Shown: positions 30,681-55,460 of the stretch, in pieces
Layout: each line of letters begins with the position of its first letter
Position numbering within the stretch: the stretch's first letter is position 1
NCBI GenBank assembly: GCA_003487265.1
Contig: DNEP01000013.1
Location: 125,736-189,735 of the forward strand
DNA length: 64,000 bases
Reading direction: 5' to 3'
Origin: Minisyncoccota bacterium
GTDB lineage: Bacteria > Patescibacteriota > Microgenomatia > UBA1400 > UBA12028
Translations under genes and position numbers: made by a program
The notes under the pieces: model-generated
Told to the model about the DNA's origin: nothing
What the model saw: only the letters and a program-made list of their open reading frames with translations
The model's database searches: none

Positions 30681-30681
30681 A

Positions 30682-33677: not shown

Positions 33678-34813
33678 TTTCTCATTCTACCATGAAGCCA
33701 AGACAAAGATGTCCAGATCATAAAAATTGTGAATGTTCCACCTATCGAGATAGATTGTTGAACAAAGACCGAGGAATCGGTGTAGTTTCCTGTAAAAAAG
33801 TATGGTGCGTATCGAAACATCGAGGCGAGTCCTGCCGAAAAAAGAAGCGCGCGTACCCATCGAACATGTATCGAAGGGAGAAAACTCAGTGCCCAAATGA
33901 GATACCACGGATAAAACCATTGCGTTCGGGGATGAAGAAGAAGTAACGAAAGCATTCCCGCAGAAATTTCAGCATAGTACTGTTGAAAGAATTTTGAACG
34001 TGTGCGAAAAAGCTCAACCGGAATTATAAGAATTGTCGCGTATTTAATAAAAAGTGAAAAGAGAATCGAGATCACCCCAACAATTTTCATTCGAACGTTT
34101 TTTTGAATCAACACAACACCAAAAAACCACAAGAACATCATCCACGCATCGTTATGACCAACCGCTATTGTTTCGACAAGAACGAGGGGGTGTAATGCAA
34201 AACTCCACCAATAGTTTTCTTTTCTCTGAGTCCAGAGAAGTAACAGGAGCCCAGCAAGTGAAAACAGTTTAAATGTGAGAAGCGTCAACAAGAATTTTCC
34301 TATTCCCAACACGTATGGAATCAATGAAAACGCCGTCCACGCATATCCGTACGGGGCTGAGGTGTGCGTGTTATGCATGAATCGCGTCCATAAATCATTC
34401 GAAAATTCCAGCGCCGTGTGCGTGTGAGGGTTAACGCCGTACTGCACAACCATTCGCGCGTTAAACATGTAGTTAAAAATGTCGTGAGAAAACAAAGGAT
34501 AGCTTATTAACAAGATAAAAATTGAAAAAAACAGAGCCACACGTTTTATCTTTTCTGATGCGTGATTGAGCAATAATCCATAATCAACAAAAAGTAACGC
34601 AACAAGAACGACATAGAGCGCCGTCGCTAGGGGCCGCTGATGATATCCGATCTGCCAAAAAAACTGTTGGAACTCCATCCACACAGGATGATTAAGTATT
34701 GTGAGGTTAGGATCTGTCTGGGTAAAGCTAAAAAGAAAAAACAGAACATACACTACGCAATGAAACAAAAACAAAAAAATACTCCCATTATGATTTTTTT
34801 TCATATTTTCCAA
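33674..34813 (-). CDS. Polytopic membrane protein of unknown function (possible GT-C/DUF2029-like)
   Basis: 379 aa with about 10 TM helices. In operon with ATGA-type overlap at 33674..33677. Confidence 0.5.
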   Translation of the reverse strand: MENMKKNHNGSIFLFLFHCVVYVLFFLFSFTQTDPNLTILNHPVWMEFQQFFWQIGYHQRPLATALYVVLVALLFVDYGLLLNHASEKIKRVALFFSIFILLISYPLFSHDIFNYMFNARMVVQYGVNPHTHTALEFSNDLWTRFMHNTHTSAPYGYAWTAFSLIPYVLGIGKFLLTLLTFKLFSLAGLLLLLWTQRKENYWWSFALHPLVLVETIAVGHNDAWMMFLWFFGVVLIQKNVRMKIVGVISILFSLFIKYATILIIPVELFRTRSKFFQQYYAEISAGMLSLLLLHPRTQWFYPWYLIWALSFLPSIHVRWVRALLFSAGLASMFRYAPYFFTGNYTDSSVFVQQSISIGGTFTIFMIWTSLSWLHGRMRK

Positions 34814-35555
34814 GAAGATCTGTAACTCGAATGCGGATAAGATCGATGAACATAATAGCCGAATCTTTTATCGGATTCACCCTATCGGAAGTAACATGTT
34901 TCCAGTGTACGGGAACCTCTGCAATCTCAAAACCCAGTATCTTTGCAATATAGAGCAACTCAACATCGAACGCACCGGTGAATGGCGAGTGCGTTTTTTG
35001 CTTTGATCCATACACAATCATTTTTGGAAATAACACCTCGGTGGCGCGCGCAGAAAAAAGCTTGAATCCGCACTGTGTGTCATGAATGCCTTGAAACGCA
35101 AAAAGTTGAACAAAAAGATTAAATCCTTTTCCCATGATATGCCGATAAAAAGGCTCTTTGTCTCGACGAGAGCCCTCGACTTCTCTCGATCCAATCACAA
35201 CATCGTATCCTTTTTGAGTAAACGGAAAAAGTTTTTCTATTTCTGAAATCGGCGTTGCTTGATCAAAATCGGTAAACAATCGAACATTTCCTTTGGCGCG
35301 CAACATCCCCGCCCGAACCGTCGACGCCTTTCCACCGTGTTCGTTCTCAATAAGTACGGTGTGTTCATGTGAAGAAACAAACTTTCGCAGTTCTTCGACT
35401 GTTCCGTCCTGAGAACCATCGTCACTCAACACCACTTCCCAAGAATATGTTTGAGTTGAAAGATAGGTGTACACTTCATCAAGCACCGCTCGCCCGATAT
35501 TTTTCATCTCATTGTATGAGGGAATCACCACACTCAAAAAAACATCATTTAGCAT
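34788..35555 (-). CDS. Glycosyltransferase family 2, dolichyl/polyprenyl-phosphate beta-glucosyl/mannosyl-transferase-like
   Basis: FLSVVIPSYNEMKNIGRAV...VVLSDDGSQDGT...TDFDQATP. Soluble GT2 without TM. Confidence 0.85.
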   Translation of the reverse strand: MLNDVFLSVVIPSYNEMKNIGRAVLDEVYTYLSTQTYSWEVVLSDDGSQDGTVEELRKFVSSHEHTVLIENEHGGKASTVRAGMLRAKGNVRLFTDFDQATPISEIEKLFPFTQKGYDVVIGSREVEGSRRDKEPFYRHIMGKGFNLFVQLFAFQGIHDTQCGFKLFSARATEVLFPKMIVYGSKQKTHSPFTGAFDVELLYIAKILGFEIAEVPVHWKHVTSDRVNPIKDSAIMFIDLIRIRVTDLLGKYEKKS

Positions 35556-37071
35556 AGATATAACTCCGTATTCCCCATTGATGCGCCTGCTGATGAATTA
35601 ATTGTACATTTTTTGATTCCAAAAAGAACTGTCGGATCTCATGAATCGGCGCAGTCTCGACTTGTTCTCCATTTTCAACAATCACCACCAGATACTCAAG
35701 GTTGGTGTAGTCGTATTGTGATTGTGGGGCCTTTTTCGCATCAATATCAAAAAAGTAGCGATACTTCATTGCCATATACTCACGGTTGTCATTCAACAGC
35801 GCAATGTTGTACACCGCTCCTTCGGGAATAGAGGGGAGAACTTCGTTTGAGATTGTTTCAATTGTTGGAATTCCCGGAGAAGCTGAGTTCCATATTGAGA
35901 GTGAACGCACATTCATGAATGCAAACACGATAACAAAAAGCGAAATGATGCCCGCGATTATTTTATGTACTCGCGAAAGCGACGCAAGCAACACCCCCGT
36001 AGACAAGAAAACCGCTGGAAAAAGATACGCAAAATAATGTTCAAACATCGTATTTCGATATAACGTTAGTCCCACGATTCCCGTCGAAAGAAAAAGAAAT
36101 AAAATGTTGAGTGCATGTGACCGTTTTTTGAAAACGAGAACTGATCCATATACCGCATACGCGATAACAAGATATGTGTTAAACAATCGTTGTTGATTCG
36201 AAACGCCGAGAATTTCCACAAGTACACGCATCGACACCCCGTGAATATCTTGCGTGAACAATCGCACTCGGTTTTGCATTGAAGGTGCCCCATTTTTCAT
36301 GGATTCAGAAAACTCTACAAATCCTTTTCGAATAATACCTTCATGTCGATAATCAAAGAAGATGAGCGGAGAAATGAGCGCGAGCAAAAAGATGACGCCA
36401 ACGCCCAAACTGAGTATGAGATTTTTTCGTGCGGTTTTCTTATAGATCATTTGATAGATCCAAACAATCATTAGTGGTGCACCCGCCAACAGCGCAACAT
36501 AGTGGAACTGCGTCAGCACCGCCCCACACAAAAAAGAAGCGATCCAGTACCGCAAGCGCCCTGTTTTACTTGCCCGAAACAACGCATACACCAGCAACAA
36601 TCCAAAGAGAGGCGCAGGATTAGGTTGCCAACTAAATCGAGAAAGTTTCACCACAACAGGCGCCGTCGCGTACAACAACATCGAGATTAATGAAGCGCGA
36701 TCTCCAACCATTCTTCTGCCGAGAATATACATCAACGCAGTGGTAAGAATTCCCATTCCCGCTATCGCATACGCGGGACCCGAAGGATTTGGATACGTTA
36801 ATGCAAGTGCGGGGATCATCGCATAGTAGTACAACGGCCCAAGGAACATGTTTCCCACGCTCGTTCGAGGACCAAGCAAGGTTACATCGTGATTAATAAA
36901 AATGTTCTTGATGATATACACATCACGACCTTGATCGTCTAAAAATTCAATATGTGGAAGAAACTGATAAAGACGCACAAAACTTGCGAGCAAAAAAATA
37001 CACAGAAACGCGATGGAACGCAGGTGGCGATACGCAAAACGAAACGCACTCACGTTTTCTTTTCCCGCCAA
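35545..37071 (-). CDS. Polytopic membrane protein, GT-C-like family B paralog 3
   Basis: IEFLDDQGRDVYIIKNIFINHDVTLLGPRTSVGNMFLGPLYYYAMIPALALTYPNP. Confidence 0.55.
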   Translation of the reverse strand: MAGKENVSAFRFAYRHLRSIAFLCIFLLASFVRLYQFLPHIEFLDDQGRDVYIIKNIFINHDVTLLGPRTSVGNMFLGPLYYYAMIPALALTYPNPSGPAYAIAGMGILTTALMYILGRRMVGDRASLISMLLYATAPVVVKLSRFSWQPNPAPLFGLLLVYALFRASKTGRLRYWIASFLCGAVLTQFHYVALLAGAPLMIVWIYQMIYKKTARKNLILSLGVGVIFLLALISPLIFFDYRHEGIIRKGFVEFSESMKNGAPSMQNRVRLFTQDIHGVSMRVLVEILGVSNQQRLFNTYLVIAYAVYGSVLVFKKRSHALNILFLFLSTGIVGLTLYRNTMFEHYFAYLFPAVFLSTGVLLASLSRVHKIIAGIISLFVIVFAFMNVRSLSIWNSASPGIPTIETISNEVLPSIPEGAVYNIALLNDNREYMAMKYRYFFDIDAKKAPQSQYDYTNLEYLVVIVENGEQVETAPIHEIRQFFLESKNVQLIHQQAHQWGIRSYIYAK

Positions 37072-38258
37072 ATAATGCGACTATACACAAAATAGTTCAC
37101 CACCATCCCCACCGCCGTTGCCACGACCAACCAAAACATTCGAGAAAGTGTTTCTTGTCCTGTTAAAGAAGTTCCAAAACCTACAATCACAAACTGGATT
37201 GCAACCGCTCCAAACGAGGACAGATTAAACTGAAGGAATTTTGGAATCAAACGCAACGGATTCGTTTCTTTTCGATCTTTAAATGTCCACGCATTGTTCA
37301 AAATAAAGTTTGAAACAATCGCACACTCTGCTCCAAGCGCAGAAGATAATCCACTCACATTCACGAATGACCAACCAGTAAATGTGGCAAGGGTTGACGC
37401 AAACCCTCGAATCGCGTCTATTCTCGAAAAAATAAACAGTCCTAAAGTGTTCACTGAAAAACCAATCAGTCCAACAACACCAAACTTAAACACGCGCAAA
37501 TGAATGATTTCTTGAAAACGGGCCTGCAACACATAAATGAGTGTATTTTTCACGTACTCTGCTCCGAGTTTCGATTTGCCATATGTTCGATCAATAAAAT
37601 GAATTGGAACCTCGGAAATTGTAAATCCTGCGCGAATTGCTTTGTGCAAAAAACCAATCTGAAATGTGTATCCCGTAAATCGAGAAGATGACATCGCAAG
37701 ATGGACGGAATCGTACACACGTTTTGTGATCGCACGGAATCCCGTCGTCCAATCGCGAATGGCAAAAGAAAACATCACGATATTGATAAACAGATTTCCA
37801 ACTCCACTTAATAATTTTCGATGAACTCCCCAGTTGCTCGGAATAGATCCACCTTTCACATACCGTGATCCCAAAACCATATCAAAACCTTGATCGATTT
37901 TTTTCAAAAACTCAGGAATTTTCCTCATGTCGTGCGAAAAATCCGCGTCAAACTCGAAAACAACATCTGCTTTTAACGTGCGAAACGCAAACTCCATACC
38001 CGCGAGGTACGCGGAACCTAAACCCTCCTTTGTCGCTTTAGAAAGAAGATGCACATTTTCATATCTCGAAGCGAATGCACGCACAGTTTCACCGGTGCCG
38101 TCGGGAGAGGAATCATCAACAACGAGAACGCTCATGTTGTAATCTGAACAAGAATGAGCAAACTCCTCGCGTAGTGCGGGAATCATCTTTTTAATATTTT
38201 CTTGCTCATTATACGTTGGAATGATAACAACTACGTTCAATTTCGATGTTTTTTGCAT
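37050..38258 (-). CDS. Polyprenyl-phosphate mannose/hexose synthase, GT2 (DPM1/Ppm1-like) fused to C-terminal GtrA-like membrane domain
   Basis: VVVIIPTYNEQENIKKMIPAL...LVVDDSSPDGT...FEFDADFSHD is the DPM1 signature. C-terminal FKFGVVGLIGFSVNTLGLFIFS... makes 4 TM of GtrA type. Confidence 0.85.
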   Translation of the reverse strand: MQKTSKLNVVVIIPTYNEQENIKKMIPALREEFAHSCSDYNMSVLVVDDSSPDGTGETVRAFASRYENVHLLSKATKEGLGSAYLAGMEFAFRTLKADVVFEFDADFSHDMRKIPEFLKKIDQGFDMVLGSRYVKGGSIPSNWGVHRKLLSGVGNLFINIVMFSFAIRDWTTGFRAITKRVYDSVHLAMSSSRFTGYTFQIGFLHKAIRAGFTISEVPIHFIDRTYGKSKLGAEYVKNTLIYVLQARFQEIIHLRVFKFGVVGLIGFSVNTLGLFIFSRIDAIRGFASTLATFTGWSFVNVSGLSSALGAECAIVSNFILNNAWTFKDRKETNPLRLIPKFLQFNLSSFGAVAIQFVIVGFGTSLTGQETLSRMFWLVVATAVGMVVNYFVYSRIIWREKKT

Positions 38259-38268: not shown

Positions 38269-39234
38269 TTATGCGTTCTTCTCTAATTCCAGTTCCGCTT
38301 TCACCATTTTCTCAACCAAATCTCTGAATGATGTTTTTGGCTTCCATCCAAGTTGCTTCATCGCTTTCGAAGCGTCGCCGATTAAATAATCCACCTCCGC
38401 CGGCCGATCGTAACGGACATCGTGTTCGTAGTACTGTTTCCAATCTTTCAGACCTGCAACATCGCATGCGATTTCCAAAAATTCTTGAACTGAATGAGAT
38501 TCGCCTGTTGCGATCACATAATCATCTGGCGTTGGCTGCTGTAACATGAGCCACATCGCTTCGACATAGTCCCCCGCATATCCCCAATCGCGTTTTGCGT
38601 TCAAGTTACCGAGTTTTACGGTTTGTTGTTTCCCATACGAAATACGTGCAACTGCATTCGCGATTTTTCTTGTGACGAACTCAAGACCTCGACGGGGAGA
38701 TTCGTGATTGAACAACATTCCCGAACACGCGTACATCCCATACGACTCTCGATAATTTACCGTGATCCAGTGTCCATACACCTTTGCAACTCCATACGGA
38801 GAACGTGGGTAAAAAGGAGTGGTTTCTTTTTGCGGTGTCTCTTGAACTTTTCCGAACATTTCCGAGCTCGAAGCTTGATAGATACGAGCGAGAGGGTGCG
38901 CGAGTCGGACCGCCTCCAACACACGCGTCACCCCTAACGCGGTAAACTCCCCCGTGAGCACAGGCTGTTCCCATGAAGCTTGAACAAAGCTCTGCGCGGC
39001 AAGATTGTACACTTCGTCGGGCTCGATTGATTTCACCGCATTTGTGATCGAATGCTGATCAATAAGATCACCACTAATCAACTCAATCTCGTGCACGATG
39101 TGTTTAATACGCTCGAAATTTTGCGTGCTCGTTCGACGAGTCAATCCAAACACCTGGTATCCTTTTGCCAACAACAGCTCGGCAAGATACGATCCATCTT
39201 GTCCTGTAATACCTGTTATGAGTGCTTTTTTCAT
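38269..39234 (-). CDS. gmd: GDP-mannose 4,6-dehydratase
   Basis: [30 protein letters not shown] is a canonical Gmd N-terminus. Start at ATG 39234 with AAAGGAG RBS 6 nt upstream. The ORF extension to 39393 is non-homologous. Confidence 0.9.
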
Positions 39235-39334
39235 GTGCTCCTTTATTCTATGCGTATCAACTATAATTTTTCTTTCTTTTCTATTGTAGTACGATCTTGA
39301 GTTGTTTGCGAGCGTGAGAGTTCTGTAAATGAAG

Positions 39335-42300
39335 TTAGGGGTGTGTAAGCGCCAATAATTGCGCATACTCCGACGATCGCACGATTTGTTCAATTACATC
39401 ACGATACGCATCTGCCAACTGAAGATGTGGAAGAGTTGCGCCAACATATCCTGCAGTTCCCACAGGATTTGAGGTTCGCGATCTCACCGTATGATCCAAC
39501 TCAACAAGCATTGAACTTAATGTGGTGACAATCTTCTCAAGTTGCCTTTCTTGCAGCGCATCTCCAATATCTTCTGGAACTGTGTATCTCAAAGTATCTG
39601 TAGTACCTTTTAATTCACGCTCTATCTCCTCTTTCGGAAAAATCGAGTTGCCGGATTTCTCAAGCACATGTAAAAATGCCAGGAGCACAGAAGTTGCAGC
39701 TTGATCTTCCAATATGAGTGCATCAAAAGAAAAGGACAATGTATCTTTCATATCTGGAAGTATTTTGTTGTTGCTCAACTCATCACAACGGTTTCGAATA
39801 AAATCAACCGTTGAACGCCAAACAATAGCGGAAAAATCATCTTTCATTTGGAAAAAAGATAAATTTTTCTCTGGCGTGGTGTTTGCGAATTTGTCTAGTT
39901 CGGAAAAAACGGCGGTAAGCCAACGCTTCATTTCCTCTTGAAACTTCTCAAGATTATGAAGATGTGTTTGGACTTTTTCTTCCTCTGACAAACTTGAAAG
40001 TATTGGTTTATGTGTTGAAAATGTGAAAATGTACTTCATCCATGGAATTTGAAGTAGCGATTCGGTAATCGCAGATTTTGAGTTCAGCCCAGTCGGCGTT
40101 CGCGCATCATTTTTCGCTTTTTCTACAAGATGTGAGTAAATTTGATCAACATGTAATCGTAAAATGTATTTTATCTGCTCAATACTTGCCGTCATATATT
40201 CTTGTTGTTGAGCGGTATTCTCTGCTGAATATTCTTTGATTTTTTTCAAAAAGAACCTATACAGCAACTGTCCTTTAAACTCATCCTCTGTTTTCAAAAC
40301 ATGAAAAAGCAAAAGTCGATCTTCAGGTGAACCGATAAACATCGCATGAATCATCTCAGCGATTTCGGCTTCATTTAACCTTTTATTAGTTTTGTTTTCC
40401 CACACTTCACGCGAAAGAGTGTAAAGTCGTCTGCGGACAATTTCCTGTGGTTTTGTCATTTCAAGTAACGAACGCATTTGCTGTACTTCTTCATCCGCAT
40501 GAGCATCCCAATCTCTTTCGATCATGCTCCATAAAGATGCGAAGTTTTCTGATTCTAATGCATTCGAATACGCTCGATTTTTATATGAAGAAAGCTCGTC
40601 TGATTGAACTGAGAGAAGATACATCCATTCTGCCGGCATTCCATTTCGAAAAACACGTCCAAGAATCTGTTCGAAATCTCGGCGAGATTGTGGAAGATCG
40701 AGCATAACCAGAAGTGCGCCGTTCGTGTTCAACAACTCTTGCGTTTGCCCAAACCACGACTGCATCTCTAAGAAATGTTCATCATTTGTAAAAACATCTC
40801 GCGCGAGTTGAAAAATGACGTGTGGAGGCAGTTCATTTTCAATAACATCCAACTGAAGCGTTTCTTGACAATACAGTCTCATTTTAGAAAGGAGAGACAT
40901 ACAGTTTGTTGGAAACGCCCGAACCAAGTCCACACCCCGTCCCATAACGGGTGTTCCCATTGTGATAAAATCTGGATTTGTTGCTTGCGTATATCTTTCC
41001 CGTTCCAATTTTTGCACAATTGTGCGCGAATTCACAACTTGAACTGTTGAGTTGAGAAACACATTGGGATTGTCCTTCTTTAATTCTTCAAGCATCTGAA
41101 GCTCATCAGTTGAACAAATAAAAATAATGGGTCGACGCGATCCATCTGAAAAACTCGACTGCGTTTGAATGATTTCTAAAATCCGTTTTTTCTTTGCTTC
41201 CGAATTCTGCAAAAAATATTCTTTTGGATTGTCTTTTGGAAGTGCAAAACAAACCGTAGGTTCAGTTGTATCGTTCATTGTAAACAAAAGACGATTCCTA
41301 TTTTCGTCAAACATAAAATGCTGTGGATATTGCGCTGGAAGCAACATCATTCTACGAAGAAACGACCTCGAAAATACATGATACTCATCAAGCAAAAATT
41401 GTTCCAACCCTTTCACGGTTCCTGTCGTTCCAGTAAACAAGACCGGTTTTTTGAGCATGTTTAGCGCATTTATTTCGTTGATCTGCGGACGTTCATCTAC
41501 AAGCACATAACTCATATCATGCTTTACCCGCAACGCAAGTTCTTGAAGAAACTCAAAGTTAACTTCCAATCTCGGACGACCCGTTTCATCGAGTGGAATA
41601 ATCTCCATATCGGTGCGCATGTACGCTTTGTTTTCTTTGAGAATGTACGCATTTAATGTTGTTTGAATAGCAACATTGTATCGAGAGATCGTTTGAAGAA
41701 ACAGGCGAATGGGCTCAGAAATTGGAGAGTTCATAAACAACGGTTCTTCCGAAAGTTGCAGAAAAAAATCGAACAGTTGGCTGGGATGAGAAAAATCGAG
41801 TTCACGTACGAGTTTTTCAACGGTCATGGGAAACAACACTTGAAATGTTTCCCTGTTTTTTCTTTGCTTCCGATATGATTTCACCGAATACGCTGCGCTT
41901 TCTTGACGCAGAAGTGACGCGAGCGCGTTGTGCATACCCTGAATCAATCCAAGTTTCTCAACAAGAATATCTTTTCCTGAATCTTGAAGGTAGAGATGTT
42001 CGTCATCGGGTTGTTCTTGATCATCTTGGAAATCACCTTTGTGAAAATTTTTGTTGAGCAAAAAAAGATTTGCCTGACCACCCTCTTCTTGCCTACACAC
42101 CGCGATTGTTTCTTGTATCACCTTTACAATGTTTTTTTTGTCTTGAAATGCGAGTTTTTCGCCCGCGATGATATAGCTCGTGTTTAGAGATTCAAGTAGT
42201 AACGCATCGAGTTCATCTGCCACAATAGAAAAAAGGTCAACGCCTTTTCGCCGATACTCCGATCGAAGCATTTGATGTGCTAGTGAACCGAGTGAAGAAT

Positions 42301-42940
42301 ATTTTATGTTTGAACGATTCAACGCTTGAAATAGTGGTTGAAATCGTTCTTGATCACGTTCCGCTAGCATATCGTTTGTAGTAGCAATCCACACATCTCG
42401 ACCAAAAACCCCATGGGCCAGTGCCACAAGTGGAAGCAGGACCGCTTTTCCTTCACCTGTTTTTATCTCAGCAACCGCACCGAAGATCATCGTGATCGCC
42501 TCGATAATCTGAAGTTTATATGGCATCACCCCAGTTTCACGTCGCATCATTTCACACGATATCGCAACAATCTCAACAATGTTGGACTCTAAAAATGTAA
42601 ATAAACGATTTCTTGATTCAGGGTCGTTTGCTTTCACTTGTTGTTCTTGTATAAAACTTTTTGCCTCGGCACAAATAGTTGAATACGCAAATTTAAGATT
42701 TTCTGATTCATTGTGTGAGAGTTTTTCATTTCGTAAAAAGACTTGTTCAGCAAGATGATGGACTTTATCTGGTGAAAGAAACGACTCTCTCTTATTTGAA
42801 TCGCCGATTGTGCCCAAGAATCTCTCGATGGGATTGGAAGAACCTTCAAGAAACGATTGCATATCGCGACTTTCTATAGGTGTTGCCACCACTGAAGAGT
42901 ACGCTGTAACGTTTCGTCGAGTGGGATTTGTGGTTGCCAC
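39335..42940 (-). CDS. Highly divergent SecA-family DEAD-motor ATPase (1201 aa; possibly 1175 aa from ATG 42862)
   Basis: SecA NBD1 motifs in order. [59 protein letters not shown] (compare E. coli SecA HFDVQLLGG...IAEMRTGEGKTL...GVHVVTVNDYLAQRD). Walker [24 protein letters not shown] (compare [21 protein letters not shown]). [15 protein letters not shown] (compare LAGMTGTADTEAFEF). [13 protein letters not shown] (compare TNMAGRGTDI). [16 protein letters not shown] (compare RIDNQLRGRSGRQG). Long N- and C-terminal extensions. Confidence 0.7.
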
Positions 42941-43815
42941 CCAAATTCTCGGTGAATTTTTGAAATGTCCGCAATTAATGTTGGAATTTCCGTTGCACGA
43001 AGCCGTTCTTCATCGCGAATGATCGGAATGTTTGCATTAGACAATGCCAGTAATTGATCGAGAATCTCGCTCATTTTGTGACCAACTCCCGATCCCACGT
43101 GGTAGACCTCACCTGTTTTTCCCTCACGAAGGAGAAGTTCATATGCGCGCACCACATCTTTCACATCCGAAAAGTCACGTACATCTGAAAGACTCCCAAC
43201 ATGAAGCGTGTCCTGCTCCCCACGTTCAATCTTCACAATTTGCTCACACATCGCGGGGACAAAAAAGGCTGAAGTTTGTCGTTCACCCGTGTGATTGAAA
43301 GGTCGAACACGGACAATGTCGAGTTTTTTACCAATGGAGTACACATAGGAAAGCATTTCTTGTGTTGCTTTTGAAACGGCATACGGATTAACCGGAAGAA
43401 ATGGTTGTGTTTCCACAATCGGGATTTGAGATGGGGGAACAACACCATATGAATCAGCCGAACCTATGGTGAGCAAGCGGACGTTGGGAAGCGCCGCTTC
43501 ACACGCTTGAAGGAGATTTAAATGAAGAACAATGTTGTTTGTGAGAATTTCTCGAGCTTGTTCGAAGCTTTTTCCAACAACGGCGATAGAAGCAAGATGG
43601 ATAATCGCATCAGGATGAAGCTCGCGAAGCATGTACTCAAGATCGCGATATTGAGTGAGATCAACAACGCGATATCGGTCTTCTGGTAAAAATTGATGCT
43701 CTATTGAAGGGATTGTTGTCGTGGTTCCCCAAACATCATCGTATCCTAATGCGTGTAGGTACGCGCACAAATGTGATCCAACAAATCCCGTTGCACCGGT
43801 GATGAGTAATCTCAT
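42874..43815 (-). CDS. rmd: GDP-4-keto-6-deoxy-D-mannose reductase (Rmd), GDP-D-rhamnose-forming
   Basis: MRLLITGATGFVGSHLCAYL, DAIIHLAS, NPYAVSKATQE, VRPFNHTGERQTSAFFV, VGSLSDVRDFSDVKDV. These motifs align with Pseudomonas Rmd (LFVTGLSGFVGKHL..., NPYAVSKLAAE, ARPFNHIGPGQ, VGDIDVSRDFLDVQDV). Confidence 0.8.
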   Translation of the reverse strand: MRLLITGATGFVGSHLCAYLHALGYDDVWGTTTTIPSIEHQFLPEDRYRVVDLTQYRDLEYMLRELHPDAIIHLASIAVVGKSFEQAREILTNNIVLHLNLLQACEAALPNVRLLTIGSADSYGVVPPSQIPIVETQPFLPVNPYAVSKATQEMLSYVYSIGKKLDIVRVRPFNHTGERQTSAFFVPAMCEQIVKIERGEQDTLHVGSLSDVRDFSDVKDVVRAYELLLREGKTGEVYHVGSGVGHKMSEILDQLLALSNANIPIIRDEERLRATEIPTLIADISKIHREFGWQPQIPLDETLQRTLQWWQHL

Positions 43816-45128
43816 ACTCCGATTCCCATGTAGCGAATACCTTGCGACTCCAACTGTGCACGCCTATCGAGGAATTGATTTCGAGCATCAATAAACAACG
43901 CTCCCTGTTTAACCTGTGTAGCAATTTCTTCGGGAGAAAGTTGAATAATCGCTTTCCATTCAATGAGAACAAACACACAATCAGCATCTTTTAATGCGTC
44001 TGGAGCGAGTTCAAAATACGCAACTGCGAGATCGGGATACCACGATTTAAAAACGGGTGTCGCCATGGGATCATATGCGCGAACTGTTGCACCTGCATGC
44101 AAGAGTTGAGGAATGATTTTTGTAGAAGGTGCTTCGCGAAGATCATCTGTATTGGGCTTAAACGCCAATCCAAGCACCGCGACCTGTTTCCCCTGCCACC
44201 CCCCAAGAATCTGCTCATATTTTCGCAGAAGCATGGAGATACGATCTTCGTTGAGTTGATCAATTGTTACGAGTAAATTGTCGGACTGACCGTGCGCTTT
44301 CGCGTATGCGGAAAGTTCTTTTACATCTTTTGGAAAACACGATCCACCATATCCCAAACCTGGATACCAATAGTGCGATCCAATGCGTTTGTCATATCCC
44401 ATTCCTTGAATAACTTCTTGAATATTTGCTCCGTTTTCCTCACAAAGATTCGCGATTTGATTAACAAAGGTTATTCGCGTGGCGAGATACGCATTTGACG
44501 CATATTTGCACATCTGCGCACTCTCTGGCTTCATGTGTAAGATTGGTGCACGAAATGGTTCATGCAACTCGGAAAGAACGCGTTTTGCAAACTCGGATTC
44601 AGAACCAATAACTACTCGATCTGGATGGAGTGTGTCATCGACCGCCGAACCTTCTTTCAAAAATTCTGGAAGTGAGGCAAGATGAAACTGTACATGTTTT
44701 GATATTTTTTGCAACTCTTGTTCAAGAAGTTCTCGAACTTTTTGATTTGTCCCCGGTGGCACGGTACTTTTAATCGCAATGATCACTTGGTCTTTTATAT
44801 ATGGTGCAAGGGACTGAATTGAAGCAAACACATATTTTAAATCAGCTTGACCGTCGGGAGCAGAGGGGGTTCCCACAGCGAGAATAATCACATCGGCCTG
44901 CGGGACTGACTCTGCATACGATGATGAAAAAGTAAGATTTCCCGATGTGATTCCTTGTTGCACGAGCTCTTTTAACTGTGGCTCAAAAAAAGGAATATTT
45001 CCTTGCGTAAGCGACTGGATTTTTTTCTCATCCACATCAAGACCGATGACTGTATTTCCAAATGAAGAAAACACTGCACTCGAAACAACTCCAACGAACC
45101 CTGTTCCTATCACAAGAATATTCATCAT
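43812..45128 (-). CDS. ugd: Nucleotide-sugar dehydrogenase, UDP-glucose 6-dehydrogenase family
   Basis: MNILVIGTGFVGVVSSAVFSSFGNTVIGLDVD is the N-terminal Rossmann. GYGGSCFPKDV is the catalytic Cys motif. Start at ATGATG 45128. ATGA overlap with rmd at 43812..43815. Confidence 0.85.
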   Translation of the reverse strand: MMNILVIGTGFVGVVSSAVFSSFGNTVIGLDVDEKKIQSLTQGNIPFFEPQLKELVQQGITSGNLTFSSSYAESVPQADVIILAVGTPSAPDGQADLKYVFASIQSLAPYIKDQVIIAIKSTVPPGTNQKVRELLEQELQKISKHVQFHLASLPEFLKEGSAVDDTLHPDRVVIGSESEFAKRVLSELHEPFRAPILHMKPESAQMCKYASNAYLATRITFVNQIANLCEENGANIQEVIQGMGYDKRIGSHYWYPGLGYGGSCFPKDVKELSAYAKAHGQSDNLLVTIDQLNEDRISMLLRKYEQILGGWQGKQVAVLGLAFKPNTDDLREAPSTKIIPQLLHAGATVRAYDPMATPVFKSWYPDLAVAYFELAPDALKDADCVFVLIEWKAIIQLSPEEIATQVKQGALFIDARNQFLDRRAQLESQGIRYMGIGV

Positions 45129-45171
45129 TCGCAAATGATACCAGTTTGATAGAATATGCTCAATACGCCAT

Positions 45172-45837
45172 ATGGAAATACACATCCTAACTTTGTTTCC
45201 AGAGATGATCACACACGCTGTTTCGCAAAGCGTGCTTGGTCGTGCGCAAAAAGCGGGTGTATTTTCTGTTCAAGCGCATAATCTTCGAGACTGGACCCAA
45301 GATGCGCATCGGACCACAGATGACCGGCCGTTCGGCGGAGGTCAAGGAATGATTATGATGATCGAGCCGATCGATCGAGCGCTAAACTCGCTCGGAGCGA
45401 AAAAAGGAACACCTCAACAGAAAATTATTTTGACTTCTGCAAAAGGAACGCTTTATTCCCAACAAGTTGCACAAGCGTGGATCTCGTTTTCAAAACTTTT
45501 TATTATCTGTGGGCATTATGAAGGTGTGGACGAACGCGTCGCGCAATACTTGGTTGATGAAGAAGTCCGAATTGGAAACTACGTGTTAACCGGCGGGGAG
45601 CTTCCCGCGCTTGTGATGGTGGATAGTGTTGCTCGCCTCCTCCCTAACGCGCTGGGAAATGAACAGAGTGCGATCGAAGAATCATTTATGCGTGAAGGAT
45701 ACCTGGAATATCCGCAGTACACTCGCCCAAGCGAGTACAACGGGTTGAGTGTGCCTGAGGTTTTAACACAGGGAAATCATAAAGATATTACAGATTGGAA
45801 AAATCAACACGCGCAACAGCTTCTCGAAGAGAAGTAA
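45172..45837 (+). CDS. trmD: tRNA (guanine37-N1)-methyltransferase
   Basis: MEIHILTLFPEM...DDRPFGGGQGMIMMIEPI...VLTGGELPALVMVDSVARLLP. Canonical TrmD SPOUT motifs. Confidence 0.9.
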   Translation: MEIHILTLFPEMITHAVSQSVLGRAQKAGVFSVQAHNLRDWTQDAHRTTDDRPFGGGQGMIMMIEPIDRALNSLGAKKGTPQQKIILTSAKGTLYSQQVAQAWISFSKLFIICGHYEGVDERVAQYLVDEEVRIGNYVLTGGELPALVMVDSVARLLPNALGNEQSAIEESFMREGYLEYPQYTRPSEYNGLSVPEVLTQGNHKDITDWKNQHAQQLLEEK

Positions 45838-46657
45838 ATGGAAGATGTGGGGCGGCTTGTCGAAGTTTGTCAGAACGTAACGCGGTATTTTGTTGATATG
45901 GTCGAGTAGCTTTTTTCAAATATTCAAGTAAATCGGATGGATGAATCTCCGCGTGAAAGTTGTGTTGTTGGTTTATGAGATTTGCGAGATCTTCATCAGA
46001 AACTTTTTCGTTCACCGTCGCATGAAAAATTCCCTTCGGTTTTGTTTGAGATGCCCATTCAAGTGCGTACGCAAAATCCTCGATCACCGTTGGTGCAAAC
46101 CAATGGTTGAAAAACGGAGTAGCGCTCCCCGCTTTCAGCGACATCGCAAGTTTATGCAAGGTATCCAGCTTTGGAAAAGGATCTTGACGAAACGGCTGAT
46201 CAATACGAAAAATCGTCCAACTTGAACAGATTTTTTGAACAACTTCTTCTGCCTTTGCTTTCGTCTCCCCATACCATTCGATAGGTGAAAGGGGCGCTTC
46301 TTCTTCATACATGTCTTCCGTTTTTCCATCGAAGACAAATGCGGTAGAAACATGAATTAAATGCTTTCCAAACGCATCACATGCTTCAGCGATCATCTGT
46401 GTACCAACAACGTTAACTTTGTAACACGCCCCCGCGGTATCACCGCGTTGCTCCCAAGCCTTTGACGCATCGGTAAATGCTGCCATATGAATCACAACAT
46501 CCGAGTCCGTTTTGGAAAGAAAATCGCGAACTTGAGTAGCGTTTGTGATATCAACGCCAACGGATAAATCCATATTCTGAAAAAAATGCGTTTTCCCAAG
46601 AGTGTCAACAACTCTTGAACCAACCAATCCAGAAAGCCCCGTACCAACAATCGTCAT
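45788..46657 (-). CDS. rmlD: dTDP-4-dehydrorhamnose reductase-like
   Basis: MTIVGTGLSGLVGSRV...VVIHMAAFTDASKAWE...HVSTAFVFDG...YGETKAKAEE follows the RmlD pattern. Located in the rmlB-rmlC-rmlD gene run. Confidence 0.72.
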   Translation of the reverse strand: MTIVGTGLSGLVGSRVVDTLGKTHFFQNMDLSVGVDITNATQVRDFLSKTDSDVVIHMAAFTDASKAWEQRGDTAGACYKVNVVGTQMIAEACDAFGKHLIHVSTAFVFDGKTEDMYEEEAPLSPIEWYGETKAKAEEVVQKICSSWTIFRIDQPFRQDPFPKLDTLHKLAMSLKAGSATPFFNHWFAPTVIEDFAYALEWASQTKPKGIFHATVNEKVSDEDLANLINQQHNFHAEIHPSDLLEYLKKATRPYQQNTALRSDKLRQAAPHLPFTSLREAVARVDFSNL

Positions 46658-46697
46658 ACGTTCCCCCCTATTTATGAATCTCGTTCAAAATAATCGT

Positions 46698-47222
46698 TTA
46701 TCCATTCACCGGTTGCCAGACTTCACTCAAAACGCAGTCCCAAGGAAATTTAAACTCGTCGGCAGGATCATACACATGTGATTGAAGATTCACCACCAAC
46801 GTTTCGGTATTCCCGAGCGCTTTCCATCCATGCATGATGCCATTTGGAATACGAAGATATCGAGGTTTTGTTGACCCTAAAAACACCGTATTCACATGCA
46901 AAAATGTTGGTGATGCCTCGCGAAGATCGACGAGTGAAACTTGGAGTTTTCCTCGAGTCACGGTGAATTGATCGGTGTGCACTTGATGCGCGTGCCAACA
47001 TTTCACCACGCCCGCATCGGTAGCGGACTGATAAATATGCGCAGGACGAATCACTCCCTCATCCGTCCATCGCTCACTCCACAACTCGGTGACATCTCCA
47101 CGACCATCCAAATGAACCAAGAGGTCCTTTCGATACACATCCGCGATTGTAAGAACATCGGCTTTTTGAACCTTGAACTGTTGTTGTTGAAGCCAATCAA
47201 CCGTTATTTGAGAAATTTTCAT
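46698..47222 (-). CDS. rmlC: dTDP-4-dehydrorhamnose 3,5-epimerase-like cupin
   Basis: WHAHQVHTDQFTVTRGKLQVSLVDLREASPTF...RIPNGIMHGWKALGNTETLVV matches the RmlC core (RGLHFQ...VRCVRGAIFDVAVDLR.GSPTFG...IPEGFAHGF). Confidence 0.72.
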   Translation of the reverse strand: MKISQITVDWLQQQQFKVQKADVLTIADVYRKDLLVHLDGRGDVTELWSERWTDEGVIRPAHIYQSATDAGVVKCWHAHQVHTDQFTVTRGKLQVSLVDLREASPTFLHVNTVFLGSTKPRYLRIPNGIMHGWKALGNTETLVVNLQSHVYDPADEFKFPWDCVLSEVWQPVNG

Positions 47223-47231
47223 CTGCCCCCC

Positions 47232-48248
47232 TTATATTCGCTCTCCATATTGTACTTCATAATAATCGAGATATGCACCTGTTTTTATGCTCTGCCACCA
47301 CTCTTGATGATCTGCAAACCAATCGATCGTTTTTTTCAAACCTTGTTCTAATGTTACACTTGGACTCCATCCCAACTCAGTATGAATTTTTGACCAATCA
47401 ATCGCATACCGTACATCATGTCCAGGACGATCTCCCACAATTTCAATCATTTCATCTTTAAAACCCATGATTGAAATAATCATCTTTACAACGTCGAGAT
47501 TTGAAATATCTTGATTCATTCCACCGATACAGTAGGTTGACCCTTCCGCACCTTTTTGCAACACAAGTTCGATCGCGCGCACATGATCTTCCACATACAA
47601 CCAATCTCTCACCTGACTCCCCGGCGAATAGACAGGAACTTTTTTCCCTTCCAACAAGTTGGTAATCGCGAGTCCCATTAATTTTTCAGGGAATTGATAC
47701 GGACCATAGTTGTTCGAACAGTTGGTGATACTGATTGGGAGACCATACGTGTCTGCGTATGCACGAACAAGATGATCAGAACCAGCTTTCGATGCGCTAT
47801 ACGGACTATGTGGTGCGTACGGCGTTTGTTCGTTGAATTTTTCAGCAGATCCCAATTCGAGCGTTCCAAACACCTCATCGGTGGAGATATGATGAAATCT
47901 TCGAATACCCACCTCTTTCGCACAATCAAGAAGCACCTGCGTACCCAACACGTTTGTGTGCACAAAAGCGGATGGGTGCATAATCGATCGATCAACATGC
48001 GACTCCGCAGCAAAGTGAACTACAACATCGGTCCCCCGCATTGCTTCAAGTACCGTCGCCCGATCACAAATGTCTCCCTTAACAAACTGGTATTGAGGAA
48101 GATGTTCTATTTCACGCAGATTTTCAAGATTTCCCGCATAGGTGAGGGCGTCATAATTCACCACTCGATCTTCGGGGTGATGCTTCATCCAATATAGAAT
48201 AAAATTTGATCCAATAAATCCCGCGCCTCCTGTAACAAAAAGTTTCAT
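47232..48248 (-). CDS. rmlB: dTDP-glucose 4,6-dehydratase
   Basis: MKLFVTGGAGFIGSNFILYWMKHHPEDRVVNYDALTYAGNLENL. YSASKAGSDHLVRAY is the YxxxK region. Canonical RmlB. Confidence 0.9.
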   Translation of the reverse strand: MKLFVTGGAGFIGSNFILYWMKHHPEDRVVNYDALTYAGNLENLREIEHLPQYQFVKGDICDRATVLEAMRGTDVVVHFAAESHVDRSIMHPSAFVHTNVLGTQVLLDCAKEVGIRRFHHISTDEVFGTLELGSAEKFNEQTPYAPHSPYSASKAGSDHLVRAYADTYGLPISITNCSNNYGPYQFPEKLMGLAITNLLEGKKVPVYSPGSQVRDWLYVEDHVRAIELVLQKGAEGSTYCIGGMNQDISNLDVVKMIISIMGFKDEMIEIVGDRPGHDVRYAIDWSKIHTELGWSPSVTLEQGLKKTIDWFADHQEWWQSIKTGAYLDYYEVQYGERI

Positions 48249-53890: not shown

Positions 53891-54247
53891 TTATAGTTTT
53901 CTAAACACGACCAACATTGCAAGAACTGCTCCGTATGTATCATACAGAATATCGCGTAACGTTGCTGTTCGGCCTGGAACATTTGACTGATGAAACTCGT
54001 CGGTCATTGCGTATGCGATTGTGAGGAACAACGGAAGGATCCACTGATGTCTCTGAGGCCTCATTGAATGTGTTCTGGCCATATACAAAAGAAAAAACAA
54101 CACGAAATATACAACCATGTGTGCGATTTTTTTTAGAAAAAAATCTGCCCAAATAACATCGGGACCTGGAAGAACCGATTGTGCAGACAACAGGTAGATG
54201 AGTACCATCCACAAACCAGAAGGAAGATACCAGAAGATCGTTTTCAT
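53891..54247 (-). CDS. VanZ-like family small membrane protein
   Basis: 118 aa with 4 TM. MKTIFWYLPSGLWMVLIYLLSAQSVLPGP...KIAHMVVYFVLFFLLY resembles VanZ-like (PF04892). Confidence 0.5.
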   Translation of the reverse strand: MKTIFWYLPSGLWMVLIYLLSAQSVLPGPDVIWADFFLKKIAHMVVYFVLFFLLYMARTHSMRPQRHQWILPLFLTIAYAMTDEFHQSNVPGRTATLRDILYDTYGAVLAMLVVFRKL

Positions 54248-55419: not shown

Positions 55420-55460
55420 ACCAACAGAGTATCAAGACGATCCTACATAAACATAACAAT

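What the first reader, a model, noticed from the sequence alone, without database searches (positions are those of the whole stretch)
38269..43815. GDP-D-rhamnose pathway genes gmd and rmd split by the SecA-like gene
gmd (38269..39234) and rmd (42874..43815) encode consecutive steps and are normally adjacent. Here the 3.6-kb SecA-like ORF lies exactly between them. The SecA-like ORF overlaps rmd by about 67 nt, or leaves an 11-nt gap if the ATG at 42862 is used. It is 100 nt from gmd. Such placement strongly implies co-transcription and a functional link between a GDP-6-deoxyhexose glycan and the ATPase.
Basis: partly seen in the sequence, partly recalled or inferred. Interest (0 to 1): 0.6.

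Follow-up and report, generated by a model that had tools for sequence, protein, structure and literature searches.

The report
Orphan SecA-like gene inserted between rmd and gmd
In one uncultured groundwater bacterium, a very divergent copy of the protein-export motor SecA sits between two sugar-synthesis genes that are direct neighbours in all nine related genomes examined, so its position looks like a one-off insertion rather than proof of a shared function.

Summary
On the minus strand the order is rmd (42874..43815), a 1175-aa SecA-like ORF (39335..42862) and gmd (38269..39234). The spacers are 11 nt and 100 nt, and neither contains a terminator.

The organism is a CPR/Microgenomates ("Pacebacteria") MAG.

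Nine distinct relatives carry the same operon (UGDH-rmd-gmd-GT2/GtrA-PMT_2-GT2-MptA_B). In all nine, rmd and gmd are adjacent (8-nt overlap to 147-nt gap) and there is no SecA-like gene.

An exhaustive HMMER search of 1.84 billion representative proteins found only the protein's own cluster at E<=1e-30. The copies I compared are 0-1 nt different over 23.5 kb. All other hits match only about 100 residues of SecA NBD1.

Profile comparison (99.8%, E 1.9e-28) and Foldseek show a SecA motor:
- NBD1, a remodelled PPXD region, NBD2 and the first scaffold helix are present.
- Catalytic residues are kept, except that Walker A is GKA instead of GKT/S.
- About 330 helical C-terminal residues cannot be assigned.
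- There is no transmembrane helix, no wing or two-helix-finger match, and no SecY2/Asp/Gtf partners.

Verdict: a lineage-specific insertion of an orphan secondary SecA paralogue, probably co-transcribed with the operon. A link to the glycan is possible but unsupported. Modest interest.

The parts
45135..45163 (-). Promoter-like site (TTGAGC-17-TATCAT with TG) just upstream of UGDH. Candidate start of the transcription unit.
   Evidence: Consensus scan and sequence. The -10 hexamer ends 6 nt before the ATG at 45128. This is a consensus match only.
43812..45128 (-). UDP-glucose/nucleotide-sugar 6-dehydrogenase (UGDH), first gene of the conserved operon.
   Evidence: Pfam UDPG_MGDP_dh N, central and C domains. 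TIGR03026 428 bits. Overlaps rmd by 4 nt. Directly precedes rmd in all nine relatives; the L020 gene is cut at the contig end and carries no domain call.
42874..43815 (-). rmd, GDP-4-dehydro-6-deoxy-D-mannose reductase (SDR).
   Evidence: Best PDB hits are 2pk3 (E 7.6e-58) and 6x3b (E 6.4e-45). Closest homologues are about 50% identical CPR proteins, several named GDP-4-dehydro-6-deoxy-D-mannose reductase by JGI.
42863..42873 (-). 11-nt spacer between the rmd stop and the SecA-like ATG (upstream insertion junction).
   Evidence: Sequence AAAGTCGCGAT. No strong Shine-Dalgarno motif. No terminator.
39335..42862 (-). Orphan SecA-like ATPase gene (1175 aa from the ATG; alternative GTG starts at 42892 and 42940).
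   Evidence: PF07517 87.3 bits. hhalign against 16 SecAs: probability 99.8%, E 1.9e-28, query residues 90-842. The 36 best Foldseek PDB hits are all SecA or SecA2. Only its own cluster is found in 1.84e9 representatives.
42143..42655 (-). NBD1 (residues about 70-240), with Walker A KTGEGKA (42443..42463) and Walker B DELD.
   Evidence: Model pLDDT is 81-97 for residues 31-200, falling to 66-93 over 201-240. The Walker A Thr/Ser found in 49 of 50 homologues is Ala here.
41453..42142 (-). Remodelled PPXD region (residues about 241-470), including a largely helical insertion of about 160 aa at 241-400.
   Evidence: No PF01043 hit at E<=0.001. hhalign shows large gaps here but keeps the '...DETGR' motif. 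Model pLDDT is 39-87.
40553..41452 (-). NBD2 (residues about 471-770), with GTTGT, MGRGVDL and GRVFRNG motifs.
   Evidence: Weak PF21090 match (E 2.9e-4). hhalign. The invariant Gly, Arg and Asp residues are kept.
40337..40543 (-). Long helix corresponding to the first helix of the SecA helical scaffold (residues about 774-842).
   Evidence: The hhalign alignment ends at SecA column 679 of 837, which is query residue 842. The model has a helix at 774-821.
39338..40336 (-). C-terminal 333 aa, all-helical, with no detectable relatives.
   Evidence: hhalign against the SecA C-terminus gives probability <1%. No Pfam hit. No database hit. AF2 pLDDT is 42.8.
39235..39334 (-). 100-nt AT-rich spacer (35% GC) between the SecA-like stop and the gmd ATG, with the AAGGAG ribosome-binding site (downstream insertion junction).
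   Evidence: No terminator. No stable fold (z +0.71). No repeat of 9 nt or more shared with the other junction.
38269..39234 (-). gmd, GDP-mannose 4,6-dehydratase.
   Evidence: TIGR01472 437.7 bits against a cut-off of 415. PDB 2z1m E 1.9e-125. 73-77% identical to the gmd that follows rmd in six relatives.
37050..38258 (-). GT2 + GtrA-TM fusion (polyprenyl-phosphate sugar synthase type).
   Evidence: PF00535 and PF04138. The same gene follows gmd in all nine relatives.
32187..37071 (-). Rest of the conserved operon: PMT_2 GT-C (35545..37071), GT2 (34788..35555), MptA_B-family GT-C (33674..34804), PMT GT-C (32187..33677).
   Evidence: Pfam, precomputed Pfam, and tblastn synteny with six relatives.

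Best explanation
The 3.5-kb gene is a lineage-specific insertion into an otherwise conserved CPR (Microgenomates) cell-envelope glycan operon: UGDH - rmd - gmd - GT2/GtrA polyprenyl-phosphate-sugar synthase - GT-C transferases.

Shown. It encodes a soluble protein with no predicted transmembrane helix and an extremely diverged SecA-family SF2 ATPase core. NBD1 and NBD2 keep nearly all invariant catalytic residues. The preprotein cross-linking domain region is remodelled. The first scaffold helix is retained. About 330 residues of unassignable helical sequence stand where the wing domain and two-helix finger would be.

Inferred. Because it sits 11 nt after rmd and 100 nt before gmd with no terminator, it is most likely transcribed from the operon promoter upstream of UGDH. 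It may be translated by re-initiation after rmd, since it has no strong Shine-Dalgarno motif. The conserved motor residues suggest it still binds ATP, and probably hydrolyses it slowly given Walker A GKA. I take it to be a secondary (accessory) SecA paralogue that handles some polypeptide client.

Its place between rmd and gmd reflects where it landed, not a conserved partnership with GDP-D-rhamnose synthesis. rmd and gmd do the same job in relatives without it.
For: Insertion:
- Nine distinct relatives have rmd and gmd adjacent (8-nt overlap to 147-nt gap) in the same gene order as the window.
- Orthology of the flanking genes is confirmed by tblastn for six of these relatives: gmd 73-77%, GT2/GtrA 47-63%, UGDH 49-62%.
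- No SecA-like sequence occurs in any of those loci or elsewhere in the window.

Orphan status:
- Only one protein at E<=1e-30 among 1.84e9 representatives. All other hits cover only query residues about 70-200.
- The 8 cluster members differ at 3 positions.
- The three fetched copies of the locus (L001-L003) differ from the window by 0-1 nt.
- Phage and plasmid collections give only NBD1 matches, covering at most 15% of the query.

SecA motor:
- hhalign probability 99.8%, E 1.9e-28, over SecA columns 61-679.
- The 36 best Foldseek hits are all SecA or SecA2, with target-normalised TM-scores (TMt) up to 0.76.
- Retained invariant residues: G136, E137, G138, K139, D216, E217, D219, R429, G478, G481, T482, T637, G641, R642, G643, D645, R728, R736, R739.

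Native-like and soluble:
- Codon usage and GC3 fall within the range of the neighbouring genes.
- The maximum 19-residue Kyte-Doolittle hydropathy is 1.51.

Co-transcription: no terminator-like site in either junction, and the spacer is unstructured.
Against: - Co-transcription and ATPase activity are untested.
- Walker A Thr/Ser is Ala here (49 of 50 homologues have T or S). D224 is Glu (50 of 50 have D). D730 is not conserved. The protein could therefore be catalytically dead.
- I could not check whether the genome also has a canonical secA, so 'secondary' is inferred from the degree of divergence.
- The nearest sampled relatives are distant (Rmd about 50% identity). The insertion could be old and fixed in a whole unsampled clade, in which case retention inside the operon could be selected.
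- The AF2 model was built on an alignment of SecAs, so it leans towards the SecA fold.
Confidence: 0.65

Rival explanations
1. The ATPase is a dedicated partner of the GDP-6-deoxyhexose glycan pathway. For example, it could be an accessory Sec motor that exports particular surface proteins which the GT-C enzymes of the same operon then D-rhamnosylate outside the membrane. That would be an analogue of the Gram-positive accessory Sec glycoprotein system.
For: - The gene lies inside the operon with tight spacing and no terminator.
- Codon usage is native-like, so it is not a fresh foreign arrival.
- The motor residues have been kept despite about 19% overall identity to SecAs, which implies selection.
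- There is precedent for a second SecA linked to glycosylation, namely the SecA2/SecY2 systems (own knowledge; mentioned in PMC4452313).
Against: - The association exists in one clonal population only.
- Nine relatives run the same operon without the gene.
- No SecY2, Asp1-3, GtfA/B or serine-rich substrate appears among the ORFs scanned across about 27.6-56.6 kb of the window.
- SecA2 models score 37-58 bits against cut-offs of 725-1100.
- No wing or two-helix-finger match, so SecY docking is unsupported.
Confidence: 0.15
2. A decaying or catalytically dead remnant. This would be a duplicated or acquired secA copy that has lost translocase function, survives as a passenger in the operon, and has no role of its own.
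For: - Walker A GKA.
- The PPXD is not recognised by Pfam and the C-terminal domains are not recognisable.
- There is no strong ribosome-binding site, unlike the neighbouring genes.
- There are no orthologues.
Against: - The 1175-codon frame is fully open in every copy.
- Nineteen invariant motor residues are retained against a background of about 19% identity. Neutral decay would not spare them.
- Codon usage is as good as that of the neighbours.
Confidence: 0.12
3. It is the organism's only SecA, a housekeeping gene that has diverged extremely and moved into the glycan operon.
For: NCBI annotators named it 'Protein translocase subunit SecA'. I could not scan the rest of the genome.
Against: - It scores 70.9-74.7 bits on SecA equivalog models whose cut-offs are 800-814.
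- It lacks recognisable PPXD, wing and two-helix-finger parts, which are needed for preprotein clamping and SecY engagement.
- The top SecA-family hits examined, including the short secondary paralogues, keep far stronger SecA_DEAD, PPXD and P-loop matches than this protein.
- CPR genomes normally encode an ordinary SecA (own knowledge).
Confidence: 0.04
4. It is a component of a mobile element, defence system or toxin system, like the SecA-like ATPase modules of giant secreted toxins.
For: Divergent SecA_DEAD modules occur in giant Omnitrophota and actinobacterial proteins and in polymorphic-toxin-like proteins (10.1101/2023.11.21.568195; PMC8195603). This gene is an orphan and an insertion.
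Against: - No PADLOC hit.
- No full-length match in phages or plasmids.
- No flanking repeats, and no tRNA gene anywhere in the window.
- No integrase, toxin or transmembrane domain among the neighbouring genes or in the protein.
- Native codon usage.
Confidence: 0.04

Closest known systems
Canonical SecA preprotein translocase motor (TIGR00963 / NF009538; PDB 1tf5, 6itc, 3din)
   Same: - Collinear NBD1, PPXD stem, NBD2 and first scaffold helix (hhalign 99.8%).
- Helicase motifs I, II, III, V and VI are largely kept.
- SecA structures are the best fold matches.
- No predicted transmembrane helix, so probably soluble.
   Different: - Only 70.9-74.7 bits against cut-offs of 800-814.
- About 19% identity to SecAs.
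- Walker A is GKA.
- No PF01043 or PF07516 match.
- A helical insertion of about 160 aa in the PPXD region.
- About 330 unrelated C-terminal residues in place of the wing domain, two-helix finger and C-terminal tail.
SecA2 and the accessory Sec (SecA2/SecY2-Asp-Gtf) glycoprotein export system of Gram-positive bacteria
   Same: It would be a second SecA-type ATPase (if the genome also has a canonical secA, which I could not check) sitting next to glycosylation genes.
   Different: - SecA2 models score 37-58 bits against cut-offs of 725-1100.
- No SecY2, Asp1-3, GtfA/B or serine-rich repeat substrate nearby.
- The neighbouring transferases are polyprenyl-phosphate-dependent GT2/GtrA and GT-C enzymes that act outside the membrane, not cytoplasmic GtfA/B (family knowledge).
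Secondary SecA_DEAD domain proteins (Kamneva, Poudel & Ward 2015, PMC4452313)
   Same: A SecA_DEAD protein that is probably additional to the housekeeping SecA and lacks the SecA_SW wing/scaffold domain. The best database hit, P0016 (Rubripirellula, 645 aa), has that SecA_SW-lacking architecture.
   Different: - Those proteins are about 610-670 aa and keep strong SecA_DEAD (267-291 bits), SecA_PP_bind and P-loop_SecA matches.
- They sit next to type I secretion-like genes.
- This protein is 1175 aa, has no PPXD match, has a novel C-terminus, and sits in a glycan operon. The HlyD/MacB genes in the window are more than 17 kb away.
Divergent SecA_DEAD modules of giant Omnitrophota and actinobacterial proteins (West-Roberts et al. 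2023 preprint; Kaur et al. 2021)
   Same: Fast-evolving SecA helicase modules without the scaffold/wing domain, found in ultra-small or uncultured bacteria.
   Different: Those are domains within multi-thousand-residue transmembrane proteins. This is a stand-alone soluble protein of 1175 aa.
gmd-rmd GDP-D-rhamnose gene pair (Pseudomonas aeruginosa, Aneurinibacillus thermoaerophilus)
   Same: The same two enzymes. They are adjacent in all nine CPR relatives.
   Different: Here they are separated by 3.6 kb. The CPR order is rmd then gmd, embedded in a UGDH...GT-C operon rather than an O-antigen or S-layer glycan cluster.

Membership tests
GDP-mannose 4,6-dehydratase (Gmd) | Full-length match to the equivalog model TIGR01472 above its curated cut-off. 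| tested here: met
   437.7 bits against 415. PDB Gmd structures at E 1e-104 to 1e-125.
GDP-4-dehydro-6-deoxy-D-mannose reductase (Rmd) | Extended SDR whose closest characterised relatives are Rmd enzymes, encoded next to gmd. | tested here: met
   2pk3 at E 7.6e-58 and 6x3b at E 6.4e-45 rank above all dehydratases and epimerases. The orthologues are adjacent to gmd in nine relatives.
GDP-4-dehydro-6-deoxy-D-mannose reductase (Rmd) | The product is GDP-D-rhamnose rather than GDP-6-deoxy-D-talose. | not testable with these tools
   The stereochemistry of C4 reduction needs an enzyme assay.
Canonical SecA | Full-length match to SecA equivalog models above the cut-off. | tested here: not met
   NF009538 74.7 bits against 814. 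TIGR00963 70.9 bits against 800.
Canonical SecA | Two RecA-like nucleotide-binding domains with SF2 motifs, including Walker A GK[T/S]. | tested here: inconclusive
   NBD1 and NBD2 align, and most invariant residues are kept. However, Walker A is GKA (T/S in 49 of 50 homologues) and D224 is E.
Canonical SecA | Preprotein cross-linking domain (PF01043). | tested here: not met
   No PF01043 hit at E<=0.001. Only the stem motifs align in hhalign, and a helical insertion of about 160 aa is present.
Canonical SecA | Helical scaffold, wing domain and two-helix finger (PF07516), needed for SecY engagement. | tested here: not met
   No PF07516 hit. The hhalign alignment stops after the first scaffold helix. 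The C-terminal 376 aa against the SecA profile gives probability <1%.
Accessory Sec system (SecA2/SecY2) | SecA2 model match, with SecY2, Asp1-3, GtfA/B and a serine-rich substrate in the locus. | tested here: not met
   TIGR03714 57 bits against 930. TIGR04221 57.5 bits against 725. None of the partner families appears among the neighbouring ORFs.
Secondary SecA_DEAD domain proteins (Kamneva 2015) | SecA_DEAD present and SecA_SW absent or fragmentary, in a protein additional to SecA. | tested here: inconclusive
   The domain criterion is met. Whether a canonical secA exists in the same genome could not be checked.
Secondary SecA_DEAD domain proteins (Kamneva 2015) | Conserved neighbourhood of type I secretion-like genes (HlyD, OEP, peptidase). 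| tested here: not met
   The neighbours are sugar-nucleotide enzymes and glycosyltransferases. HlyD/MacB lie at 60470..63347, more than 17 kb away.
Known anti-phage defence proteins (PADLOC) | Match to any PADLOC model. | tested here: not met
   0 families at E<=0.1.

The most novel reading that the evidence does not exclude
The orphan SecA-derived ATPase is a newly evolved accessory export motor. It would feed specific envelope proteins to the membrane, where the GT-C enzymes of the same operon glycosylate them with polyprenyl-phosphate-linked D-rhamnose. That would make it a CPR-specific analogue of the accessory Sec glycoprotein pathway, arisen independently. The novel helical C-terminus would replace the wing and finger domains as the docking module.
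Probability: 0.1. Interest if true: 0.7.

Novelty: new variant of a known kind. Interest (0 to 1): 0.3.

Why it matters
The finding shows that position inside an operon can mislead when only one genome is read. Comparative synteny turns an apparent "split pathway with an embedded partner" into a one-off insertion.

The gene is a rare case of a SecA motor that has diverged so far that no relative of its full architecture exists among 1.84 billion representative proteins, yet it keeps the catalytic core. If it is active, it would widen the range of things SecA-type motors can become in ultra-small CPR bacteria. The envelope biology of those bacteria is almost unknown.

The conserved UGDH-rmd-gmd-GT2/GtrA-GT-C operon is probably the more general result. 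It suggests that a GDP-D-rhamnose-derived, polyprenyl-phosphate-linked glycan is common in Microgenomates.

Tried and rejected
1. Close or distant full-length relatives. The word-index search and the exhaustive HMMER search found only the protein's own cluster. A search with the C-terminal 333 aa returned nothing. That search did not return the parent protein either, so it is a weak negative.
2. Population variation for dN/dS. The cluster members differ at 3 residues, and the loci differ by 0-1 nt in 23.5 kb. This is unusable.
3. GTDB species representatives with Rmd as query. The best matches were 38% identical Dehalococcoidia. The window's own genome was not returned, so this was uninformative for synteny.
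4. Signs of foreign origin. GC3 and synonymous codon likelihood are like the neighbours. The two junctions share no repeats of 9 nt or more. The window has no tRNA gene. There is no phage or plasmid homologue beyond NBD1 and no PADLOC hit.
5. The C-terminal domain. Relaxed Pfam gave only noise. hhalign against the SecA C-terminus gave probability <1%. AF2 on the region alone gave pLDDT 42.8, which cannot be used for fold search. In the full-length model the C-terminus is also below 50.
6. The AFDB Foldseek library was unavailable.
7. Taxonomy of the best NBD1 hits. Only a Rubripirellula secondary SecA_DEAD protein and an actinomycete helicase carried names, which gives no clue to the donor.
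8. I considered and rejected the idea that the HlyD/MacB genes at 60-64 kb make this a Kamneva-type locus. They are too far away and are an ordinary MacAB-like set.
Full report
**Observation.** All genes in the region lie on the minus strand. In the direction of transcription the order is as follows.

| Gene | Coordinates | Notes |
|---|---|---|
| UGDH | 43812..45128 | first gene of the operon |
| rmd | 42874..43815 | overlaps UGDH by 4 nt |
| SecA-like ORF | 39335..42862 | ATG start, 1175 aa |
| gmd | 38269..39234 | 321 aa |
| GT2/GtrA fusion | 37050..38258 | |
| GT-C and GT2 genes | continuing to about 24 kb | mostly overlapping |

- The rmd stop is 11 nt from the ATG at 42862. GTG starts at 42892 and 42940 would overlap rmd by 19 nt and 67 nt.
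- The SecA-like stop is exactly 100 nt from the gmd ATG, which is preceded by AAGGAG.
- gmd passes the curated equivalog cut-off: TIGR01472 437.7 bits against 415.
- The best solved relatives of the rmd product are the two Rmd structures, 2pk3 (E 7.6e-58) and 6x3b (E 6.4e-45).
- The middle ORF carries PF07517 SecA_DEAD at 87.3 bits.

Three independent assemblies reproduce the arrangement with 0-1 nt differences in up to 23.5 kb.

**Organism and setting.** The protein is identical to NCBI entries from Microgenomates group bacteria GW2011_GWF2_45_18 and GWF1_44_10, and from a "Candidatus Pacebacteria" MAG. The organism therefore belongs to the Candidate Phyla Radiation.

The window is dominated by a very long co-directional envelope-glycan cluster. 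It contains:
- rmlB, rmlC and rmlD
- UGDH, rmd and gmd
- a GT2/GtrA polyprenyl-phosphate-sugar synthase type enzyme
- a flippase-like gene
- a LytR-CpsA-Psr gene
- at least eight GT-C type membrane glycosyltransferases

**Comparative synteny, the decisive test.** The closest Rmd homologues in 5.8 billion proteins are only about 50% identical, and those that carry a source name are from CPR bacteria. I fetched the context of nine of them, from distinct assemblies: L012, L013, L014, L015/L016, L017, L018, L019, L020 and L021.

- Every one shows UGDH - rmd - gmd - GT2/GtrA - PMT_2 - (PMT_2) - GT2, which is the window's order. MptA_B follows wherever the fetched locus reaches that far (all except L020).
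- In every one, rmd and gmd are direct neighbours. The spacing ranges from an 8-nt overlap (L017) to a 147-nt gap (L015).
- L017 even shares the upstream rmlC - rmlD - trmD(opposite strand) - UGDH layout.
- tblastn confirms orthology of the flanking genes in the six relatives compared: gmd 73-77%, GT2/GtrA 47-63%, UGDH 49-62%.
- tblastn finds no trace of the SecA-like protein in any relative locus or elsewhere in the window.

**The gene is an orphan.** An exhaustive HMMER scan of 1.84 billion cluster representatives gives one protein at E<=1e-30, which is the query's own cluster. The next hits (E 2e-15 and weaker) match only query residues about 70-200, the Walker-A half of SecA NBD1. The eight cluster members differ at three positions. 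Phage and plasmid collections contain only the same short NBD1 similarity to ordinary secA and secA2 genes.

**What the protein is.** A profile of 16 canonical SecAs aligns to query residues 90-842 with 99.8% probability (E 1.9e-28). The alignment covers SecA columns 61-679 of 837, which correspond to NBD1, the PPXD stem, NBD2 and the first helix of the helical scaffold.

An AF2 model built on an alignment with 50 SecA-family sequences has pTM 0.69:
- pLDDT is 81-97 in the NBD1 core (residues 31-200) and mostly 70-94 in NBD2.
- It is mixed (39-87) in the PPXD region.
- It is below 50 through much of the C-terminal third.

Its 36 best PDB matches are all SecA or SecA2 (E down to 9e-26; TMt up to 0.71 for the full-length SecA 6itc and 0.76 for the isolated motor domains 3bxz). 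The model inherits a bias towards the SecA fold from its alignment.

Column statistics over 50 homologues show which residues are kept and which are lost.

| Status | Residues |
|---|---|
| Kept (invariant in homologues) | GEGK, DExD, TGR, GxxGT, T..GRG.D, and three motif-VI arginines |
| Changed | Walker A Thr/Ser (49/50) is Ala; D224 (50/50) is Glu; D730 (47/50) is Phe |

The following are absent or unrecognisable:
- PF01043, the PPXD domain. A largely helical insertion of about 160 aa occupies residues 241-400.
- PF07516, the scaffold/wing domain.
- Any similarity of the last 333-376 residues to the wing or two-helix finger (hhalign probability <1%), to Pfam, or to anything in the database.

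The protein has no transmembrane segment. It fails the SecA and SecA2 equivalog cut-offs by an order of magnitude and matches no PADLOC model.

**Origin.** GC (0.40), GC3 (0.355) and synonymous-codon likelihood (-1.008 per codon) lie within the spread of 20 neighbouring genes. The gene is therefore either long resident or came from a compositionally similar donor. The two junctions share no repeat of 9 nt or more. There is no tRNA gene in the window, and none of the neighbouring ORFs scanned matches an integrase family. Nothing marks the gene as a mobile element.

**Transcription.** Neither junction contains a terminator-like or promoter-like consensus site. The counts for the whole 9.5-kb region are at the level expected from shuffled sequence. 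The 146-nt stretch around the 100-nt spacer folds no better than shuffled sequence (z +0.71).

A promoter-like site (TTGAGC-17-TATCAT with TG) lies immediately upstream of UGDH, in the 43-nt divergent gap to trmD. Co-transcription from that promoter is the simplest reading, but it is an inference. The AT-rich spacer contains -10-like hexamers that could provide gmd with its own promoter.

The SecA-like start has no good Shine-Dalgarno motif, whereas many of its neighbours do. This suggests low expression or coupling to rmd termination.

**Interpretation.**

*Shown:*
- The gene is a single-lineage insertion into a conserved operon.
- It is a highly diverged SecA-family ATPase with a retained catalytic core and a novel C-terminus.
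- Nothing isolates it transcriptionally.

*Inferred:*
- It is a secondary SecA paralogue that still binds ATP, and probably hydrolyses it, and acts on some polypeptide client.
- It is expressed as a passenger of the glycan operon.

*Not supported:*
- A conserved functional coupling to GDP-D-rhamnose synthesis. The same pathway and operon function without the gene in every relative examined.

A link within this one organism remains possible. Selection has preserved the motor residues, and the gene has stayed in the operon long enough to acquire native codon usage. I give that reading about 0.15, a dead remnant about 0.12, the sole housekeeping SecA about 0.04, and a conflict or mobile module about 0.04.

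**Comparison with known systems.**
- It works like a SecA-type motor, as far as the sequence can show.
- It is not a member of canonical SecA, SecA2 or the accessory Sec system, because defining features were tested and not met.
[quoted passage not shown] 2015 (PMC4452313) in lacking the wing/scaffold domain. It differs from them in size, in having no PPXD match, and in its neighbourhood.
- It resembles the fast-evolving SecA_DEAD modules in giant Omnitrophota and actinobacterial proteins, but it is a stand-alone soluble protein.

I therefore rate it a new variant of a known kind.

**Verdict.** What remains is an orphan SecA derivative of unknown role in a CPR bacterium. Interest 0.3.

Noticed in passing
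window 38269..48248; L017 119..5410: The dTDP-L-rhamnose genes (rmlB, rmlC, rmlD) and the GDP-D-rhamnose pair (rmd, gmd) sit in one co-directional cluster. L017 has the same layout. A 2019 survey of complete genomes (bioRxiv 10.1101/854612) reported the gdp pathway only in Pseudomonas and Aneurinibacillus, and both pathways together only in Pseudomonas. The conserved CPR operon UGDH-rmd-gmd-GT2/GtrA-GT-C, seen in nine relatives, widens that picture. No rmlA was seen among the ORFs scanned.
   Followed up: partly
window 2550..37071: There is a very large array of about 500-aa membrane proteins. At least eight have GT-C type Pfam hits (PMT_2, PMT, PTPS_related/YfhO, MptA_B). Several more have similar length and either no Pfam hit (24328..26061, 26055..27614) or were not scanned (10297..16514). 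This suggests extensive paralogous expansion of polyprenyl-phosphate-dependent glycosyltransferases.
   Followed up: partly
window 45172..45837 (+); L014, L017, L018: trmD (tRNA m1G37 methyltransferase) lies on the opposite strand, wedged between rmlD and UGDH, and overlaps the 3' end of rmlD by 50 nt. A trmD on the opposite strand lies upstream of UGDH in three relatives: directly in L017, and with one unannotated gene between in L014 and L018. This is an odd but conserved position for a housekeeping gene inside a glycan cluster.
   Followed up: no
window 45128..45163 (-): The promoter-like -10 hexamer (TATCAT with an upstream TG) ends only 6 nt before the UGDH ATG. This would give a leaderless or nearly leaderless mRNA for the first gene of the operon.
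   Followed up: no
L021 1..4656: In one relative, an ORF of more than 1829 aa with no Pfam hit on record lies directly upstream of UGDH on the same strand. It shows no similarity to the SecA-like protein.
   Followed up: partly
proteins P0016, P0026, P0044, P0046, P0053: Many of the best NBD1 hits are proteins of about 610-670 aa with SecA_DEAD, SecA_PP_bind and P-loop_SecA but no SecA_SW domain. This is the 'secondary SecA_DEAD' architecture, and it appears abundant in metagenomes. Longer forms of 1072-1400 aa with N-terminal extensions also occur (P0040, P0063, P0042).
   Followed up: partly
window 20751..23075 (-): A 774-aa ORF inside the glycan cluster has no Pfam match at E<=0.001.
   Followed up: no
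window 54244..56627 (-); L014 2236..4665; L018 1332..3919: A lamin-tail-domain (LTD) protein lies about 10 kb upstream of the operon in the window, next to an M23 peptidase. In two relatives an LTD protein lies next to a Peptidase_C39_2-like gene and FtsX/ABC genes. This may be a conserved envelope neighbourhood.
   Followed up: no
tool behaviour: the search for homologous proteins did not return the query's own cluster for Rmd or for the C-terminal fragment of the SecA-like protein, although it did for the full-length protein. Negative results from that tool for short or partial queries should be treated as weak.
   Followed up: no
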